From a virus (lineage: Duplodnaviria; Heunggongvirae; Uroviricota; Caudoviricetes), in the IMG/VR virus record IMGVR_UViG_2695420855_000011, positions 1-8,050 of that record: a stretch of DNA of 8,050 nucleotides; one strand, given 5' to 3'. Under the pieces are notes generated by a model. It had not been told where the DNA came from. It was given only the letters and a program-made list of their open reading frames with translations, and searched no databases. This document shows positions 1 through 5,376 of this stretch, piece after piece; the stretch's first letter is position 1, and every line of letters starts with the position of its first letter. Made by a program: the position numbers and the translations under genes.

Positions 1-239
1 TCAGTTTTTAGCCAGAGCGGTGACGGCATTGTCGAGTTTTTGCCATCCGCAATAGGTGATTGCTCTGAATGCTGTTGCGCCATTCTGGAAAAGGCTAACC
101 GCTCCTGATTCGGTTTTTATTACCGCCTCATCAGTTGGAGTTATAACCGTGGCTTCAACGTTAATAATCAGCTTTTGAGCGTCTATCAGCATCATGCGAT
201 CCGCCTGTTCGCTCACAATTACCGGTATTCTCAAAAGCT
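1..239 (-). pseudogene. 3'-terminal fragment (about 79 codons) of an HK97-fold major-capsid-like gene; exact copy of 4450..4688
   Basis: Bases 1-239 are identical to 4450-4688 and diverge at 240 (a) versus 4689 (c). The minus-strand frame gives the same C-terminal 77 aa as the 308-aa ORF at 4450..5376. No 5' part or start codon; an in-frame TAG (plus 238-240) sits immediately upstream at the point of divergence. Confidence 0.6.
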
Positions 240-349: not shown

Positions 350-567
350 AACCCCCCCTCCCCATTTTCACAATCAGCAACAAGAATATTTTTAGCGTCA
401 TTCAGCGACCGCGTGGCGGTGTATCGGATACATTCCAGGGCGAACAATGTGTATTCTTCCCGTTCTTCCTTTTGTGCAAGCCCTGCTGTGCATTCAATAT
501 CAATAAGCGCATGCATCAGCGTAGTGAGCGCGGCGGCTGCTGCGTCCGGTGTGGTTTTATTGCACAT
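322..567 (-). CDS. Hypothetical 81-aa protein, translationally coupled to the Icd-like gene
   Basis: ATG at 567 is preceded by CAGGAGG with a 6-nt spacer. The start overlaps the stop of the Icd-like ORF (minus strand ...CCATGTGCAATAA). No family recognised. Confidence 0.5.
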   Translation of the reverse strand: MCNKTTPDAAAAALTTLMHALIDIECTAGLAQKEEREEYTLFALECIRYTATRSLNDAKNILVADCENGEGGLCVMIVLIP

Positions 568-1117
568 GGCACACCTCCTGACGAATACGGGCGGCGAATA
601 CAGCAACACAACCGGACGGGCAACGGCTACGTGCTTCGCGTTCCGTCCAGGCGGTTACGTGGATGATTTGATGTTCTGACGCGCCAAAGATGATAAAGCG
701 CCAGAGAAAGGCGGTTTGAGAATGTACAAGGGTAGGGATAGTAGCCATGTTGGCAGCCTCCTCAGTGTGGTTAAGATAACCGCCACCGGAAACGCCAATT
801 TCGCTGGTGGCGGACTGTACAGGGTTGGCGTAACCGGACACTGAAGAAACCGGCGCGGATTGCTCCGCCCCCGTACAGCCCACCATTGATAAGGTGTGAC
901 TATGCGGCACAAAAAAACACGCGGGGCGCGTGTTATGCGCTTCAGTTTTGCCCAGGACGCCAATCCCGGCACCCGTTTTATGAGGTGCGCGGGAATCATA
1001 GCTATTTTCGACACTGGCGATCAACTGGTTTTTTTCTCCGATATTCAGGGCCAGAAAACGCCACACAAAGGCCGTTTGTGTGTGTACAAGGTGTGGTATA
1101 TGATTTACGGCAACCAT
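557..1117 (-). CDS. Tandem (two-domain) Icd-like small protein, 186 aa as one frame; the second domain (557..748) has its own ATG and strong SD
   Basis: ATG at 1117 is preceded by AGGAG with a 5-nt spacer. Two paralogous segments share the pattern hydrophobic-H-x-Q-T-A-F-x-W-R-F (MVAVNHIPHLVHTQTAFVWRF... and MATIPTLVHSQTAFLWRF...). This resembles proteins annotated as host cell division inhibitor Icd-like in enterobacterial prophages, recalled from memory and not verified. There is no stop between the two copies. Confidence 0.45.
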   Translation of the reverse strand: MVAVNHIPHLVHTQTAFVWRFLALNIGEKNQLIASVENSYDSRAPHKTGAGIGVLGKTEAHNTRPACFFVPHSHTLSMVGCTGAEQSAPVSSVSGYANPVQSATSEIGVSGGGYLNHTEEAANMATIPTLVHSQTAFLWRFIIFGASEHQIIHVTAWTEREARSRCPSGCVAVFAARIRQEVCHVQ

Positions 1118-1146
1118 AACGGCTCCTAGTTTACGTTGTTGGTTAG

Positions 1147-1180
1147 ACGCCCCGTATGTGTTCCCAGCACTGCGGGGCGT
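1147..1180. promoter_or_regulatory. Hairpin (8-bp GC-rich stem ACGCCCCG / CGGGGCGT, 18-nt loop) in the leader region of the Icd-like operon
   Basis: Inverted repeat at 1147-1154 and 1173-1180, followed on the plus strand by a T-rich tract 1181-1190. It lies about 30 nt upstream of the Icd-like start on the minus strand. Confidence 0.3.
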
Positions 1181-1205
1181 TGATTTTTGTGTAATGGCAA
1201 GTACA

Positions 1206-1247
1206 ATGGTAATTACCATGTAGGTATAGTAATGAAGGGTAATTACC
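1206..1247. promoter_or_regulatory. Two palindromic operator-like sites sharing the core GGTAATTACC, between the divergent arc-like and icd-like genes
   Basis: A perfect 14-bp palindrome ATGGTAATTACCAT at 1206-1219 and a 10-bp palindrome GGTAATTACC at 1238-1247, the latter directly abutting the ATG of the Arc-like gene. A TATAGT -10-like hexamer lies between them at 1225-1230. Confidence 0.45.
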
Positions 1248-1421
1248 ATGTCAACACCATTAGAAAAACGTTCGCCTCCATACCAAATGCGATTACCGGA
1301 AGACTTCAGAGCGCAGCTAGAAGAAGCAGCTAAGGCCGATGGCGACACATCTTTAGCCACTTGGATTAAACGCGTTCTCCGCAAAGAATTACAGCAACGC
1401 GGCATAGAACCCAAAGGATAA
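1248..1421 (+). CDS. Arc/MetJ-type ribbon-helix-helix DNA-binding protein, 57 aa
   Basis: Own translation: MSTPLEKRSPPYQMRLPEDFRAQLEEAAKADGDTSLATWIKRVLRKELQQRGIEPKG. It shows the RHH pattern (beta-strand YQMRLP, helix A, G-D-T-S turn, helix B). It is below the length cutoff of the supplied ORF track and sits right after the palindromic operators. Confidence 0.75.
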   Translation: MSTPLEKRSPPYQMRLPEDFRAQLEEAAKADGDTSLATWIKRVLRKELQQRGIEPKG

Positions 1422-1478
1422 AAACTATCAGCGCCGTGGTGTGAGGTATTACGGCGCATTGCTATGCAGGACAACACA

Positions 1479-1652
1479 ATGACCGATAAAGAATTGACCA
1501 AAACATTATCACCGGCACGGAAAAGACGGCGCAGAAAGATAGAGCATGAATCAGAAAGATTCGCGCCATGTGCTTTTGCCCTTGAGCAATTCCTTAAAGA
1601 GTACAGGGAAAAGCGCTCATTGCAGGTATGGCAACGAACTGAACCAGACTGA
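1479..1652 (+). CDS. Small basic hypothetical protein, 57 aa, downstream of the Arc-like gene
   Basis: ATG at 1479 with AGGA 7 nt upstream. Sequence MTDKELTKTLSPARKRRRRKIEHESERF... It is followed by an intrinsic terminator. No family recognised; the alternative start at 1464 has a poorly spaced SD. Confidence 0.35.
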   Translation: MTDKELTKTLSPARKRRRRKIEHESERFAPCAFALEQFLKEYREKRSLQVWQRTEPD

Positions 1653-1747
1653 TTGCATTGCCCACCAGCCTGATAGCGGCTATCATCCCCGTGCTTATGT
1701 TTGGGATCACATACACATAAGGCGCAGCGGGTTAATTGTTCAGAAAG

Positions 1748-1774
1748 GCGGCTCCATATCGGGGCCGCTTTTTT
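1748..1774 (+). terminator. Rho-independent terminator for the arc-like operon, possibly bidirectional with alpA
   Basis: Stem GCGGCTCC / GGGGCCGC (8 bp with one G-U pair), 5-nt loop, then TTTTTT at 1769-1774. It sits between the convergent ORF ends at 1652 (+) and 1801 (-). Confidence 0.55.
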
Positions 1775-1800
1775 CGTGTTTGTCATATCTGTGATACCCG

Positions 1801-2007
1801 TTAAGCAGCCGTTCCGCGTGCTTCCTCTTCGCGTTCTTTCTGCCAGGACAACACATCATCCTCATACCATCCGCGACGGCGTAAACCAACGCGAAAACCC
1901 TGCGGAAATTCTCCGGCGTTGATCATGCTTTGCAGCGTGCTGTCTGCCTTGATGTGGATAATTTTTTTTACTTCCTGGCGAAAGATAATTTTTCTGATTG
2001 CTTCCAT
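1801..2007 (-). CDS. alpA: AlpA-family phage transcriptional regulator / excisionase-like protein, 68 aa
   Basis: Sequence ...IIFRQEVKKIIHIKADSTLQSMINAGEFPQGFRVGLRRRGWYEDDVLSWQ... fits the AlpA/Vis signature (S-T-L/I ... AGEFP ... G ... GW ... W). Located downstream of the integrase, as in CP4-57-like islands. Confidence 0.8.
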   Translation of the reverse strand: MEAIRKIIFRQEVKKIIHIKADSTLQSMINAGEFPQGFRVGLRRRGWYEDDVLSWQKEREEEARGTAA

Positions 2008-2503: not shown

Positions 2504-3745
2504 CTACACGGCTCGGATACCCCTTTTACCACTGGCGAGGGTTACGCCCGTCGCCGCAGCCTCGACAAATTCGCCCCACCAGCGCATCAGCACGATGCGT
2601 TTTTCTATGTAGTTGCTCCGGTTGTATGCCCGTCTAACTTCGTTGGTGTCGACGTGGGCAAGTGCCGCCTCTATTACGTCCGGCTCGAATCCTTCCTCGT
2701 TCGCTGCTGTGCTGAATATGGCGCGTAATCCATGAGACACCAGCACGCCAGCGAATCCCATACGCCGCAATGCTGCGTTAGCTGTCTGGCTGTTCATCGG
2801 CTGCTGTGGGTCTTTCAGACTTGGGAAAACGTAATTGCGGTGGTGGCTGATTGGTTTCATGGCCTCCAGCACCGCCATAGCCTGACCGGAAAGCGGGATA
2901 ACGTGATCCCTGCGCATCTTCATGCGTCCGGCAGGTATCGTCCATTGCTTCGCGTCCAGGTTGATTTCATCCCACCGCGTTGATGACGCTTCGGCGGGAC
3001 GGGTTACGGTCAGTAACTGCCATTCAATCAGTAATCTGGTCTGCCGTTCTGTTGCCGATACTGATAAAGCCTGCATAAGCTCGGGCAGCTGTTCGGGGCG
3101 GATTGTTGGCATATGTTTTTTTACAGGTGAGGGAAACGCCTTACGCACATTCATAGCCGGATTGGCATCAATCAGCCCACTGTTGGCGGCGTAATCCATT
3201 ACCTCATTAACGCGCTGTAAAACCCGCTTGAGTGTTTCCAGGTTGCCGCGCTCCTTGATGGGGGTAAGCACTTCAACGAACCTTCGGGCGGTGAGGGTAT
3301 CTATTGGCGTGTTGCCGATGAACGGGAATACATATTTATCCAGCGAACGCCAGATGTCTTTAATCGTGTTGGGGGCCAGATTCTGGCTGATTTTCACCTG
3401 GTACCATGCCGCCGCCACATTTTCGAACGTGTTCCCTTGTCTTCGGGCCTCTGTCTCTCTTTTTTGCCTCTCGTGGTCCTGCGGGTCAGTTCCGGCACTG
3501 ATTAACGTCCTGTACTCGCTACGGCGTTTTCTGGCATCAGCCAGGGAAACATCTTCAAGCGATCCAAAACTCAGCAATATTCTTTTTTTGTCCGATGGTC
3601 GGTAGTAGGAAAATCTCCAGAGTTTTGATCCAGACGGTTTGACCAGGAGAAAAAGCCCTCCGCCGTCCTGCAGGGTGTACTCCTTTTGCGCTGGTCTGGC
3701 TGCTTTGATCTGCACTGTGGTTAATGGGTGTGTTTTTCTCGCCAT
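2504..3745 (-). CDS. int: P4-like tyrosine integrase (site-specific recombinase), 413 aa
   Basis: N-terminus MARKTHPLTTVQIKAARPAQKEYTLQDGGGLFLLVKPSGSKLWRFSYY... is typical of P4 / CP4-57 IntA-type arm-binding domains. The C-terminal part has H-x-x-R (SHGLRAIF) and the tyrosine motif (RRAYNRSNY). The ORF track starts at an upstream GTG (3763); the ATG at 3745 matching the family N-terminus is preferred. Confidence 0.9.
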   Translation of the reverse strand: MARKTHPLTTVQIKAARPAQKEYTLQDGGGLFLLVKPSGSKLWRFSYYRPSDKKRILLSFGSLEDVSLADARKRRSEYRTLISAGTDPQDHERQKRETEARRQGNTFENVAAAWYQVKISQNLAPNTIKDIWRSLDKYVFPFIGNTPIDTLTARRFVEVLTPIKERGNLETLKRVLQRVNEVMDYAANSGLIDANPAMNVRKAFPSPVKKHMPTIRPEQLPELMQALSVSATERQTRLLIEWQLLTVTRPAEASSTRWDEINLDAKQWTIPAGRMKMRRDHVIPLSGQAMAVLEAMKPISHHRNYVFPSLKDPQQPMNSQTANAALRRMGFAGVLVSHGLRAIFSTAANEEGFEPDVIEAALAHVDTNEVRRAYNRSNYIEKRIVLMRWWGEFVEAAATGVTLASGKRGIRAV

Positions 3746-3778
3746 ATGTCTATGATTCCACACGAAAAAACAGGGTTT

Positions 3779-3830
3779 TAGTTATACGGCTTTAGTTATA
3801 CGCCAGCCCGTATAACTAAACGTATAACTA
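3779..3830. repeat. Four copies of a 10-bp motif (TAGTTATACG twice direct, CGTATAACTA twice inverted) in the int leader
   Basis: Copies at 3779-3788, 3793-3802, 3809-3818 and 3821-3830, symmetric about position 3805. Located between the candidate int promoter and the int ATG. Confidence 0.45.
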
Positions 3831-3835
3831 AAAAA

Positions 3836-3876
3836 TCCGGCTGATAGCTTATAAATCCGGTGATGTTCGGTGACTA
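3836..3876 (-). promoter_or_regulatory. Candidate int promoter overlapped by phased (T)CCGGTG repeats
   Basis: On the minus strand, a -35-like TAGTCA (plus 3871-3876), a 17-bp spacer and a -10-like TATAAG (plus 3848-3853). TCCGGCT / TCCGGTG / TTCGGTG sit at 3836, 3856 and 3866, spaced 20 and 10 bp. Confidence 0.35.
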
Positions 3877-3884
3877 AAAAACAT

Positions 3885-3917
3885 AAAAAAACCCGCCAAT
3901 CAAGTGATTAGCGGGTT
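3885..3917 (-). terminator. Rho-independent terminator insulating int from upstream minus-strand transcription
   Basis: Stem AACCCGC / GCGGGTT (7 bp) with a 14-nt loop, flanked on the plus strand by AAAAAAA at 3885-3891 (a U-tract on the minus strand). Confidence 0.5.
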
Positions 3918-3929
3918 ATCCCTGTCTTA

Positions 3930-3956
3930 TCCGGTGCTTTCCGGTGATATCCGGTG
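3930..3956. repeat. Three TCCGGTG heptamers at exact 10-bp phasing
   Basis: TCCGGTG at 3930-3936, 3940-3946 and 3950-3956. Confidence 0.5.
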
Positions 3957-4039
3957 GGCGATTTGGTCGGCACGAGAGTATTTTAATTTGGCGTGTAACT
4001 GAGTGATTTTAATAAATATTCTTGATTCAACTTTTAAGC

Positions 4040-4061
4040 CGTATAACCAAACGTATAACTA
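4040..4061. repeat. Two further copies of the CGTATAAC(C/T)A motif
   Basis: CGTATAACCA at 4040-4049 and CGTATAACTA at 4052-4061, in the same orientation as the inverted copies at 3809-3830. Confidence 0.4.
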
Positions 4062-4207
4062 AAAATATTTGCTGTAAAAATGAACAATTCAAACGGTTGT
4101 TGCCCTGGGGGCTTCAATAATTCCACCGGAATTTTTTTCCGGTTAACCTTTAATCATGTTGGTGGGTCATTAAATGCCCCCTTACTCTGGTTTAAATGCC
4201 GTTTTTT

Positions 4208-4449: not shown

Positions 4450-5376
4450 TCAGTTTTTAGCCAGAGCGGTGACGGCATTGTCGAGTTTTTGCCATCCGCA
4501 ATAGGTGATTGCTCTGAATGCTGTTGCGCCATTCTGGAAAAGGCTAACCGCTCCTGATTCGGTTTTTATTACCGCCTCATCAGTTGGAGTTATAACCGTG
4601 GCTTCAACGTTAATAATCAGCTTTTGAGCGTCTATCAGCATCATGCGATCCGCCTGTTCGCTCACAATTACCGGTATTCTCAAAAGCTCTATCTGCCAGA
4701 ACTCAGCATTAGTAAGCTGTAAGGCGTTTTCTACGGGCAAGATTAGCGACGACGTGGCAAGCGTGTTACCGTTCGCTATGTGCTTTTTGAAAAGCTCTAT
4801 GAAGTTTTCGGCCTCATCAGCACCATTAAGCACGCCCTCAGGGGATACGCCCGCCAACTCCTGGTCACTGGAAAGAAATTTTTTATCTATTTCTTTCACC
4901 GATTCCGATGTGATCAAGTCTCTGATCGCTGAATTGGTACCAGGGGTGCTAAATTTGATTAGCTCGTTATTCAGCATCACAATAGCGCCGAGTTTGTACA
5001 GTTTTAGCGAGCTTTCGCTTACTTCTCCCCCTTTTACTGGGATTTCTTCGGCCTCTTTAAGCCATTTACTCCCCTTGCCTGATATTGATTGCAATTTTGC
5101 GCCAAAGGGAAGATTAAGCGCACTACTGATTAACTTGCCAGGTACAGACTGCGAAAAAATATACCCGCCCAGCTCTCTTGCTATCGGCTCAGCCACCAGC
5201 GACGGAAGGTTATCCGTGTTCATTCCTGCTACTACGGATTTTTCAAGGAATAACGAGACAGCCGGATCATTTCTTTTCGTCATCTCTATAGCGTCAGCAT
5301 GGCTAAATTTACACGATGCCAGCACGCTGGCGGCGCGAACTGCTGACACGCCTTTCATGTTTTTACAGATCATCAT
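4450..5376 (-). CDS. HK97-fold major capsid protein-like, 308 aa
   Basis: C-terminal half (...GVLNGADEAENF...LILPVENALQL...LRIPVIVSEQADRMMLIDAQKLIINVEATVIT...SLFQNGATAFRAITYCGW) follows the conserved pattern of HK97-type capsid proteins, by recall not by search. Strong SD (AGGAGGAGGAAG) before ATGATG; translationally coupled to the upstream small ORF. Confidence 0.55.
   Translation of the reverse strand: MMICKNMKGVSAVRAASVLASCKFSHADAIEMTKRNDPAVSLFLEKSVVAGMNTDNLPSLVAEPIARELGGYIFSQSVPGKLISSALNLPFGAKLQSISGKGSKWLKEAEEIPVKGGEVSESSLKLYKLGAIVMLNNELIKFSTPGTNSAIRDLITSESVKEIDKKFLSSDQELAGVSPEGVLNGADEAENFIELFKKHIANGNTLATSSLILPVENALQLTNAEFWQIELLRIPVIVSEQADRMMLIDAQKLIINVEATVITPTDEAVIKTESGAVSLFQNGATAFRAITYCGWQKLDNAVTALAKN

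What the first reader, a model, noticed from the sequence alone, without database searches (positions are those of the whole stretch)
1479..1652. Small basic ORF co-transcribed with the Arc-like gene
A 57-aa protein with an arginine/lysine-rich patch (ARKRRRRK) follows the Arc-like gene with a well-spaced SD and shares its terminator. A pair made of an RHH regulator and a small partner of unknown function is the layout of many toxin-antitoxin and small defence modules, but this protein is shorter than typical RelE/ParE toxins and unrecognised.
Basis: inference. Interest (0 to 1): 0.4.

Follow-up and report, generated by a model that had tools for sequence, protein, structure and literature searches.

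The report
Translated small satellite gene, not a toxin
The 57-codon ORF is a real, translated small gene (published in 2016 as "X019") that sits behind the repressor gene of an E. coli phage-satellite island; nothing supports a toxin role, and its function is still unknown.

Summary
ORF 1479-1652 (+) encodes 57 aa with ARKRRRRK, has an AGGA 7 nt before the ATG, follows a ribbon-helix-helix (RHH) gene (1248-1421), and is followed by a strong terminator (1742-1774).

It is a genuine gene. It is intact in 94/94 related loci. Its amino-acid replacements are conservative in this frame but not in the overlapping antisense frame (p=5e-4, like control genes). It is identical to "X019", found translated by ribosome profiling in EHEC EDL933 (footprint RPKM 242, RCV 3.51).

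The toxin-antitoxin reading is not supported:
- No toxin or defence family matches.
- The predicted structure is a disordered basic tail plus one helix.
- A fixed 57-nt hairpin spacer separates the two genes.
- The identical protein follows at least 16 different RHH proteins.
- Most RHH homologues lack it.

The element is a P4-like/PICI satellite. The RHH gene with co-varying operators looks like a hypervariable immunity cassette; X019 is a constant, E. coli/Shigella-restricted second cistron expressed in the uninduced state.

Both genes lie antisense inside a 409-codon minus-strand ORF (557-1786). That ORF is the homologue of P4 eta/kil and stays open in every X019 locus examined.

Function is unknown. 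My best guess is a lysogeny-expressed accessory protein.

The parts
1479..1652 (+). The finding: small gene 'X019', 57 aa (basic tail plus one amphipathic helix), second cistron of the RHH operon
   Evidence: ORF and sequence. Intact in 94/94 loci. pN/pS 0.38-0.44. Replacements are conservative in this frame only, p=5e-4. Ribosome footprints in EDL933. PHROG 21027, E=1.2e-15. AF2 helix 29-53.
1468..1471 (+). Shine-Dalgarno-like AGGA, 7 nt before the ATG at 1479
   Evidence: Read from the sequence. CAGG is invariant in 26 spacer variants.
1431..1457 (+). Conserved hairpin (GCGCCGTGG / TTACGGCGC) inside the fixed 57-nt spacer (1422-1478) that travels with X019; role unknown
   Evidence: The spacer is 57 nt in every locus. 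92.7% of cells are paired, but there is only one compensatory change, so structure is not proven.
1248..1421 (+). Ribbon-helix-helix (Arc-like) gene, first cistron; inferred repressor of the divergent promoters
   Evidence: PHROG 228, E=1.5e-6. Sub-threshold Pfam Arc and NCBIfam YlcI_YnfO_N. Coding-strand test p=0.004. 79% identical homologue in Pasteurella Pmp8.
1206..1219 (.). Operator-like palindrome ATGGTAATTACCAT, abutting the -10 of the + promoter
   Evidence: The same palindrome occurs upstream of the Pmp8 homologue. Other RHH types have other repeats at the same place.
1238..1247 (.). Second operator-like palindrome GGTAATTACC, abutting the RHH start codon
1180..1207 (+). Promoter-like site (TTGATT-16-TACAAT) of the RHH-X019 operon
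   Evidence: PlatProm promoter at -269 from the X019 start in EDL933.
1226..1254 (-). Divergent promoter-like site (TTGACA-17-TACTAT, 10/12) between the two operators; would drive the Ash-like/Icd-like operon
1742..1774 (+). Intrinsic terminator of the RHH-X019 operon, lying inside the first codons of the minus-strand eta-like ORF
   Evidence: Conserved, or replaced by a variant with a different stem sequence, in related loci.
557..1786 (-). 409-codon eta/kil-like ORF. It starts 14 nt after the alpA stop and ends in the Icd-like (Kil-like) protein (557-748). Its first 223 codons are antisense to X019 and the RHH gene and share their wobble positions
   Evidence: Open for 221-805 codons in every X019 locus. 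P about 1e-4 by chance for the window alone. Only residues 224-409 match families (Phage_ASH, PHROGs). P4 eta has the same layout. Eta logic described in PMC10111431.
912..988 (-). isrK-like RNA, inside the eta-like ORF
   Evidence: Rfam RF01394, 66 bits against a gathering score of 50. A promoter-like site at 1024-995 lies directly upstream.
803..890 (-). C4/CI-type antisense immunity RNA, inside the eta-like ORF
   Evidence: Rfam RF01695, 77.6 bits against a gathering score of 45. Same order as in P4.
1801..2007 (-). alpA/vis-like regulator-excisionase gene, convergent with X019
   Evidence: PHROG 2790/66, E about 2.5e-6. Pfam Phage_AlpA E=0.0028, below cut-off. PGAP annotates it as 'helix-turn-helix transcriptional regulator'.

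Best explanation
The ORF is a genuine, translated small gene, already listed as novel gene X019 of EHEC EDL933. It is the constant second cistron of the ribbon-helix-helix (RHH) repressor operon of P4-like/PICI phage satellites of E. coli and Shigella.

Shown:
- It is conserved, under protein-level constraint, and covered by ribosome footprints in uninduced cells.
- It is always preceded by a fixed 57-nt spacer with a hairpin.
- It is combined by recombination with many different RHH alleles.
- It lies antisense inside the satellite's eta/kil-like ORF.

Inferred:
- The RHH protein binds the palindromes at 1206-1219 and 1238-1247. It thereby controls its own promoter and the divergent promoter of the Ash/Icd-like operon.
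- X019 is made together with it in the quiescent (lysogenic) state and terminates at 1742-1774.
- When alpA-side transcription is switched on, it runs convergently through the cassette while the eta-like frame is translated. That would shut the cassette off.

Most likely role of the protein (inference, weakest step): a dispensable, lysogeny-expressed accessory ('moron'-type) factor. It would act through its conserved amphipathic helix (ERFAPCAFALExFLK) on a protein partner, with the basic tail adding nucleic-acid or membrane affinity. That fits interference with a competitor or helper, or fine-tuning of the switch. It is not a growth-arresting toxin neutralised by the RHH protein.
For: - Real gene: 94/94 loci intact; pN/pS 0.38-0.44.
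- Coding strand: the mean BLOSUM62 score of replacements is +0.07 in the + frame and -0.91 in the overlapping minus frame, p=5e-4. The controls RHH, Icd-like and alpA behave the same way.
- Translation: footprint RPKM 242, coverage 0.77, RCV 3.51, classed 'real'.
- Operon: promoter 1180-1207, matching the PlatProm promoter at -269; conserved terminator.
- Accessory nature: found in E. coli, Shigella and one E. albertii plasmid only. Only 1 of 185,579 species representatives has it, and a profile search of 1.84 billion proteins gave 9 hits.
- Prevalence: present in 1604 of 5426 complete E. coli genomes.
- Dispensable partner: absent behind most RHH homologues, where the slot is empty or holds another small ORF such as a signal-peptide/lipobox-like 47-aa ORF.
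- Constant versus variable: the identical protein follows at least 16 RHH variants, while operators co-vary with RHH type.
- Shape: disordered basic tail plus one helix, pLDDT 94 over residues 31-40.
- Context: eta/kil, C4 and isrK as in P4.
Against: - No functional assay exists. The partner or target of the helix is unknown.
- No mass-spectrometry peptides were found in the EDL933 study.
- Constraint is only moderate (pN/pS about 0.4). The C-terminal third is replaced or frameshifted in many relatives.
- The basic patch is not conserved in divergent members (L003 type; P0040 has it at the C-terminus), so its role is uncertain.
- The synonymous-in-one-frame-only counts do not separate the strands (13 vs 12-15 events). 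The strand assignment therefore rests on the BLOSUM test and on ribosome profiling.
- That the RHH protein represses the promoters is inferred from layout alone.
Confidence: 0.55

Rival explanations
1. X019 is a core regulatory partner in the satellite's switch. It would be a small nucleic-acid-binding protein (arginine-rich tail plus dimerising helix). Candidate targets are the hairpin in its own leader, the C4/isrK immunity RNAs, or operator DNA together with the RHH protein. Alternatively it could antagonise AlpA or the Kil/Icd-like protein in the quiescent state.
For: - It is co-transcribed with the inferred repressor and expressed in uninduced cells.
- It has a polybasic tract, RKRRRRK.
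- A conserved hairpin always travels with it, and its G-U pairs fit the + strand RNA.
- It is located between alpA and the RNA-immunity region.
Against: - The RHH/eta architecture works without it in most relatives, including a 79% identical RHH.
- The basic tract is lost or moved in divergent members.
- Hairpin covariation is not significant: one compensatory pair, and 216 of 500 shuffles do as well.
- X019 alleles do not co-vary with RHH or operator type.
Confidence: 0.2
2. Toxin-antitoxin or small defence module. X019 would be a toxin or effector held in check by the RHH protein, which would act as antitoxin and autorepressor.
For: - The gene order is RHH first and small partner second, in one operon with autoregulatory-looking operators.
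- It sits in a mobile element, where such modules are common.
Against: - It matches no toxin or defence family.
- The predicted shape is a single helix, not a RelE/ParE-type fold.
- The 57-aa RHH protein has no C-terminal neutralising extension; its Arc-like match spans residues 6-55.
- A 57-nt spacer separates the genes.
- The identical X019 is paired with at least 16 RHH proteins whose C-termini are of two unrelated kinds.
- The RHH gene usually stands alone.
- X019 is translated at a high ribosome density in growing cells.
Confidence: 0.06
3. The peptide has no function of its own. The ORF would be translated only as a by-product. What matters would be the + strand transcript (antisense RNA and convergent transcription against the alpA-eta transcript) or the need to keep the minus-strand eta frame open.
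For: - The ORF is wholly antisense to an ORF that is kept open in every locus.
- In-frame indels are equally explained by the minus frame.
- The variable C-terminus and moderate pN/pS fit weak constraint.
- Given the protein sequence, the minus frame stays open with probability 0.79, so the two are easily compatible.
Against: - Replacements are conservative in the + frame and slightly worse than random in the minus frame (expected -0.46 and -0.58; observed +0.15 and -0.84).
- The core ERFAPCAFALExFLK is kept in relatives that are only 42-51% identical overall and in the more divergent P0038 and P0040.
- The start codon and SD-like CAGG are invariant.
- Ribosome density is high.
Confidence: 0.12

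Closest known systems
X019, novel translated small gene of E. coli O157:H7 EDL933 (Neuhaus et al. 2016, BMC Genomics 17:133, PMC4765031)
   Same: Identical protein: the 62-aa form equals window 1464-1652. It has phage origin, a promoter predicted 269 nt upstream, and ribosome footprints.
   Different: That study listed it as a stand-alone un-annotated ORF starting at the non-conserved upstream ATG. It gave no function, no link to the RHH gene or to a satellite, and no mention of the antisense eta-like ORF.
PHROG 21027 (unknown function)
   Same: Residues 1-45 match profile positions 1-46 of 65, E=1.2e-15.
   Different: The family has no annotation, so membership adds no function.
Phage P4 left operon: vis - eta/kil with CI (C4-type) RNA immunity
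   Same: - alpA/vis is followed by a long ORF that contains isrK-like and C4-type RNAs in the same order and ends in a Kil/Icd-like peptide.
- Translation of eta from the upstream late promoter prevents termination (PMC10111431).
   Different: - In P4 the eta start is about 70 nt from the isrK-like element; here it is about 800 nt.
- The extra roughly 700 bp carry the + strand terminator, X019, hairpin spacer, RHH gene and operators.
- P4 has neither the RHH gene nor X019.
Phage P22 immI (mnt | arc-ant) and P1 immI (c4-icd-ant)
   Same: - An RHH repressor gene diverges from an operon that carries antirepressor-network genes (Ash/Bro), as Mnt does in P22 (own knowledge).
- A C4 RNA lies upstream of an icd-like gene, as in P1 (own knowledge).
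   Different: - The second cistron here is a 57-aa helix protein, not an antirepressor.
- The whole RHH operon is antisense to a translated leader ORF.
Type II toxin-antitoxin operons with RHH antitoxins (ParD/ParE, RelB/RelE, CcdA/CcdB)
   Same: Order is RHH gene first, small partner second; one operon; palindromic operators at the promoter.
   Different: - There is no toxin family or fold.
- The RHH protein has no neutralising tail.
- A 57-nt spacer separates the genes.
- The partners do not co-vary.
- The RHH gene is mostly found alone.
Lysogeny-expressed genes downstream of repressor genes (e.g. lambda cI-rexA-rexB; own knowledge)
   Same: It is co-transcribed with the maintenance repressor in the uninduced state. 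It is dispensable, of narrow distribution, and replaceable by other cargo in the same slot.
   Different: No exclusion or defence activity is known for X019. The resemblance is positional only.

Membership tests
Type II toxin-antitoxin module (RHH antitoxin plus toxin) | The second gene encodes a member of a known toxin family or fold | tested here: not met
   No hit in Pfam, NCBIfam, PADLOC or PDB sequences. The AF2 model is a disordered tail plus one helix. Foldseek against the PDB gives 0 matches.
Type II toxin-antitoxin module (RHH antitoxin plus toxin) | The antitoxin carries a toxin-neutralising extension besides the DNA-binding RHH fold | tested here: not met
   The RHH protein is 57 aa and its Arc-like match covers residues 6-55. 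Partner RHH proteins end in two unrelated tails...RGIEPKG or ...RRKAKEQE.
Type II toxin-antitoxin module (RHH antitoxin plus toxin) | Cognate pair inherited and evolving together | tested here: not met
   The identical X019 follows at least 16 RHH proteins of three types, with the junction at the RHH stop. About 60 of 80 RHH loci, and Pmp8, lack X019.
Type II toxin-antitoxin module (RHH antitoxin plus toxin) | Growth arrest by the toxin alone, rescued by the antitoxin | not testable with these tools
   Needs cloning and induction.
Known anti-phage defence systems (PADLOC-DB 2.0) | Protein matches a model of a known or candidate defence system | tested here: not met
   0 families at E<=1 for X019, the RHH protein, the eta-like ORF and the ORF at 2175-2426.
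X019 / PHROG 21027 family of small prophage proteins | Sequence membership | tested here: met
   PHROG 21027, E=1.2e-15. Identical to X019 of EDL933. 36 protein clusters at 64-98% identity.
Arc/Mnt-type RHH repressor with operators | RHH fold of the first cistron | tested here: inconclusive
   PHROG 228 'Arc-like repressor', E=1.5e-6. Pfam Arc (14.3 bits vs 20.4) and NCBIfam YlcI_YnfO_N (18.7 vs 30) are below their cut-offs. No structure was predicted.
Arc/Mnt-type RHH repressor with operators | Repeated palindromic sites over the promoters, specific to the repressor allele | tested here: met
   ATGGTAATTACCAT and GGTAATTACC flank the divergent promoter-like sites. Other RHH types have other repeats at the same positions. 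Binding itself was not tested.
P4-type eta/kil leader ORF with RNA immunity | Long ORF that begins next to vis/alpA, contains the immunity RNA and ends in Kil | tested here: met
   557-1786 (-) starts 14 nt after the alpA stop, contains isrK (988-912) and C4 (890-803), and ends in the Icd-like 63-aa protein. P4 8168-8812 has the same order.
P4-type eta/kil leader ORF with RNA immunity | Translation of the ORF is needed for read-through of a Rho-dependent terminator | not testable with these tools
   Indirect only. The frame is open for 221-805 codons in all X019 loci, with P about 1e-4 by chance. There is no amino-acid-level constraint in the part antisense to X019.
Arginine-rich-motif RNA-binding peptides (lambda N type) | Conserved arginine-rich tract that binds a cognate RNA hairpin | tested here: inconclusive
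   The tract is present here and a hairpin lies 21 nt upstream of the ATG. But the tract is absent (L003/L009 type) or relocated (P0040) in relatives, and hairpin covariation is not significant.

The most novel reading that the evidence does not exclude
The RHH-X019 cassette is a true two-strand coding region. Two sense genes are expressed in the quiescent state. They sit inside an antisense ORF (eta-like) whose product does not matter there, but whose translation is needed for anti-termination once the satellite is induced. The two strands would then form a convergent, mutually exclusive switch. This protein-based layer (a hypervariable RHH repressor plus the constant X019) would sit on top of the C4/isrK RNA immunity of P4-like satellites. 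In this reading X019 is an active part of the switch, for example an RNA-binding or anti-AlpA/anti-Kil factor.
Probability: 0.2. Interest if true: 0.6.

Novelty: already known. Interest (0 to 1): 0.33.

Why it matters
The ORF is carried, often in several copies, by about 30% of complete E. coli genomes, including EHEC O157 and O26. RefSeq often leaves it un-annotated and calls the antisense ORF as a pseudogene instead.

Three things follow from settling that it is a real, translated gene and not a toxin:
- It corrects the annotation.
- It places an orphan 'novel gene' from a ribosome-profiling study in a defined regulatory cassette of phage satellites.
- It points to a testable design: a hypervariable repressor/operator module and a constant small protein written antisense inside a leader ORF that must stay open.

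That last point bears on how satellites keep quiet and switch on, and on how overlapping reading frames are maintained.

Tried and rejected
- Shadow-ORF artefact of the 409-codon minus-strand ORF. Rejected: replacements are conservative only in the + frame, and ribosome footprints are reported.
- Known toxin or defence family. No hit in Pfam, NCBIfam, PADLOC, PDB sequences or Foldseek/PDB.
- Remote homologues elsewhere. A profile search of 1.84 billion representatives gave 9 hits. Eight are family members or frameshifted/fragmentary versions of the family, and the two looked up (P0038, P0040) lie in the same satellite context. The ninth (P0037) is a spurious repeat protein. The species-representative scan gave one Shigella locus. 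There is no match in the phage collection, P4 included.
- Stop-codon read-through fusion of RHH and X019, which share a frame 231 nt apart. Rejected: some spacer variants carry an extra in-frame TAA (...GAG TAA CTA...).
- Counting changes that are synonymous on one strand only. This is too weak to separate the strands: 13 of 30 versus 15 of 47 possible changes.
- Covariation support for the spacer hairpin. Inconclusive: 92.7% paired but only one compensatory pair.
- Literature search for an RHH gene in PICIs. No paper found. 'YlcI/YnfO' appears only as an annotation label.
- The source genome of the window. No complete E. coli genome is collinear with it.

Full report
**1. Observation.**
Window 1479-1652 (+) is an ATG ORF of 57 codons plus stop: MTDKELTKTLSPARKRRRRKIEHESERFAPCAFALEQFLKEYREKRSLQVWQRTEPD.
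- AGGA lies 7 nt before the ATG. CAGG is invariant at that place in 26 distinct variants of the upstream spacer.
- An in-frame ATG at 1464 gives a 62-aa form, but many relatives lack it.
- The gene upstream, 1248-1421 (+), is a 57-aa ribbon-helix-helix (RHH) protein. PHROG 228 'Arc-like repressor' gives E=1.5e-6. Pfam Arc and NCBIfam YlcI_YnfO_N are below their cut-offs.
- Between the two genes there is a hairpin without a U-run.
- A 14-pair hairpin plus T6 follows at 1742-1774. It is kept, or replaced by a variant with a different stem sequence, downstream of the ORF in most relatives.

**2. Where it lies.**
Window 240-3983 matches E. coli O26:H11 11368 at 99.4%. This is a small integrative element next to tRNA-Pro/yejM.
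- The element carries integrase, an AlpA-like regulator, Icd-like and Ash-like genes, a RepA helicase, a small terminase and a capsid gene. That makes it a P4-like/PICI phage satellite.
- All annotated genes are on the minus strand.
- On that strand Rfam finds a C4-type antisense RNA (890-803, 77.6 bits) and an isrK-like RNA (988-912, 66 bits).
- RefSeq does not annotate the RHH gene or the target ORF in this strain. It calls the minus strand 1271-1786 a partial 'Icd-like' pseudogene.
- In other strains RefSeq does annotate the pair, as 'YlcI/YnfO family protein' plus 'hypothetical protein'. The pair always lies between the Icd-like operon and alpA, on the opposite strand.

**3. Which strand codes?**
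The minus strand has a 409-codon ORF (557-1786). It starts 14 nt after the alpA stop and ends with the 63-aa Icd-like protein. It shares wobble positions with both + ORFs.
- In all 14 first loci this frame is open for 221-607 codons, and for about 800 codons in two further loci.
- For the window alone, an open frame over the 223 codons without any family match has P of about 1e-4. The other five frames carry 8-20 stops.
- Only residues 224-409 match protein families: Phage_ASH and several PHROGs.
- Phage P4 has the same arrangement. ORF 8168-8812 (-) overlaps the end of vis, contains isrK-like (8692-8615) and C4 (8507-8420) elements, and ends in Kil.
- As summarised in PMC10111431, P4 eta is translated only from the upstream late promoter. 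Its translation prevents termination, and Kil is its nested C-terminal part.

I therefore read 557-1786 as the eta/kil homologue. Its frame must stay open, but its N-terminal sequence need not matter.

**4. The + ORF is nevertheless a real gene.**
- It is intact with an ATG in 94 of 94 loci, 40 distinct DNAs. Several differ only synonymously.
- Pairwise pN/pS is 0.38-0.44 in its frame and 0.48-0.56 in the shared-wobble minus frame. That gap is too small to decide.
- Changes synonymous on one strand only do not decide either.
- The quality of replacements does decide. For changes that alter both frames, mean BLOSUM62 is +0.07 to +0.15 in the + frame (random expectation -0.46). It is -0.84 to -0.91 in the minus frame (expectation -0.58). 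Paired p = 2e-4 to 5e-4.
- Three controls (the RHH gene, the Icd-like gene, alpA) give the same signature for their known coding strand.
- Independently, the ORF is 'X019' of Neuhaus et al. 2016 (PMC4765031). The listing gives EDL933 1680779-1680967, footprint RPKM 242, coverage 0.77 and ribosome coverage value 3.51. That value is near the top of the study's 0.02-3.6 range. The ORF is classed 'real', has a promoter predicted 269 nt upstream, and has no MS peptides.
- That promoter position coincides with the promoter-like site at 1180-1207 in front of the RHH gene. This supports co-transcription.

**5. What the protein looks like.**
- AlphaFold2, with 24 family sequences, gives a disordered N-terminus and one helix (29-53). 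pLDDT is 94 over residues 31-40 and the mean is 71.
- The family-defining part is ERFAPCAFALExFLK.
- The basic tract is degenerate (L003/L009: SQKTNREHENM) or moved to the C-terminus (P0040) in divergent members. The last third is replaced or frameshifted in many.
- There is no hit in Pfam, NCBIfam, PADLOC, PDB sequences or Foldseek/PDB. Only PHROG 21027, of unknown function, matches.

**6. Distribution and partners.**
- The spacer plus ORF occurs in 1604 of 5426 complete E. coli genomes, with up to 6 copies per genome.
- It also occurs on a few Escherichia plasmids and in Shigella. It is absent from the phage collection, P4 included.
- A profile search of 1.84 billion representatives found 9 proteins. 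The two divergent ones looked up lie in the same satellite context.
- The spacer is 57 nt in every case and carries a conserved hairpin (1431-1457 here). 92.7% of cells pair, but there is only one compensatory change.
- Homology of many loci begins right after the RHH stop codon. The identical 57-aa protein follows at least 16 different RHH proteins of three types.
- Each RHH type has its own repeated sites over a conserved divergent-promoter frame. Here these are ATGGTAATTACCAT and GGTAATTACC.
- Of 80 IMG/VR loci with an RHH homologue, about 20 have X019. The rest have nothing or another small ORF, for example a signal-peptide/lipobox-like 47-aa ORF.
- The 79%-identical RHH gene of Pasteurella satellite Pmp8 has no partner. 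It is still antisense to a 328-codon ORF.

**7. Interpretation.**
The RHH gene with its operators looks like a hypervariable immunity (repressor/operator) cassette. X019 is a constant, dispensable, E. coli-restricted second cistron expressed in the uninduced state.

The toxin-antitoxin reading fails every test that could be run: family, fold, neutralising tail, coupling and co-variation. Only toxicity itself remains untested.

My best-supported account is that X019 is a lysogeny-expressed accessory protein acting through its amphipathic helix. The rivals are a role inside the switch, an RNA-only function, and a toxin.

Relative to P4, about 700 bp have been placed between alpA/vis and the isrK-like element without closing the eta frame. 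They comprise the terminator, X019, the spacer, the RHH gene and the operators. The cassette and the alpA-driven transcript are convergent. This suggests, but does not show, mutually exclusive expression.

**8. Novelty and score.**
The ORF's existence and translation were published in 2016, and it belongs to a catalogued PHROG. As a finding it is therefore already known, and the proposed toxin role is not supported.

I did not find the following described in the papers I could search:
- its placement in the RHH operon of satellites;
- the constant-versus-hypervariable pattern;
- its antisense embedding in an eta-like ORF.

These raise the interest somewhat, and I score it 0.33.

Noticed in passing
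window 557-1786 (-): A 409-codon minus-strand ORF runs from 14 nt after the alpA stop to the end of the Icd-like gene and contains isrK-like and C4 RNAs. It is the homologue of P4 eta/kil. It stays open for 221-805 codons in every X019 locus, even across tandem RHH-X019 duplications. RefSeq annotates pieces of it as Icd-like and ash pseudogenes.
   Followed up: yes
window 1-239 = 4450-4688; 7627-8050 = 3322-3745: The window is not collinear with any complete E. coli genome. A capsid-gene 3' fragment joins the hypothetical/Icd region at 239/240. A RepA C-terminal fragment joins an integrase N-terminal fragment at 7626/7627. It looks like two complementary deletion derivatives of the satellite in tandem, or a chimeric assembly.
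   Followed up: partly
window 3774-4077: Repeats of CGTATAACTAAA and TCCGGTG lie on both sides of the point (3983) where homology to the integrated O26 element ends. No tRNA gene is present. This looks like an attP-type junction with integrase arm sites, as between tandem elements or in an excised circle.
   Followed up: partly
window 1206-1219 and 1238-1247; L005, L009, L010, L014, L097 upstream of their RHH genes: The operator-like repeats differ with the RHH type (GGTAATTACC, TGTCTTACAC, ACTGGATTCCAGTA, TGAAACACAC, TGTGCGCACA, ACTGAATCACA), within a conserved divergent-promoter frame. This is the pattern of immunity-specific repressor/operator pairs.
   Followed up: partly
window 1116 (-), 995-1024 (-), 1146-1183 (-): Inside the eta-like frame there is a strong AGGAG plus ATG at 1116, the start of the Ash-like part. 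A 5' hairpin (ACGCCCCG...CGGGGCGT) precedes it. A second promoter-like site (TTGATC-18-TATGAT) lies directly upstream of the isrK-like RNA. Together these give nested starts like P4 eta/kil with PLE.
   Followed up: no
L152, L164, L169-L172, L175 (about 2654-2800): In other RHH-bearing satellites, the slot after the RHH gene holds a 47-53-aa ORF with a signal peptide and a lipobox-like Cys (for example MKKILLGLIVLLIAVFALKSC...). It starts 4-7 nt after the RHH stop and is a different small cargo in the same position.
   Followed up: no
L003 2202-3446; L009 1209-2333; L097 4001-5125: Tandem duplications of RHH-plus-small-ORF pairs, sometimes with one degenerate RHH copy (L096 upstream of 4001). 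All stay within the open minus frame.
   Followed up: partly
L134 (about 2708-2893): A very divergent relative of X019 (MNNEELREIALSILERQVEKKL...PKRFALEDFLKN...) sits 57 nt after an RHH gene. It lacks both the APC motif and the basic tract, which suggests the family is wider than sequence searches show.
   Followed up: no
plasmid record NZ_CP148328.1 (10,790 bp), 2170-2346: A 10.8-kb E. coli 'plasmid' carries a 68%-identical X019 homologue. It may be an excised circular satellite rather than a plasmid.
   Followed up: no
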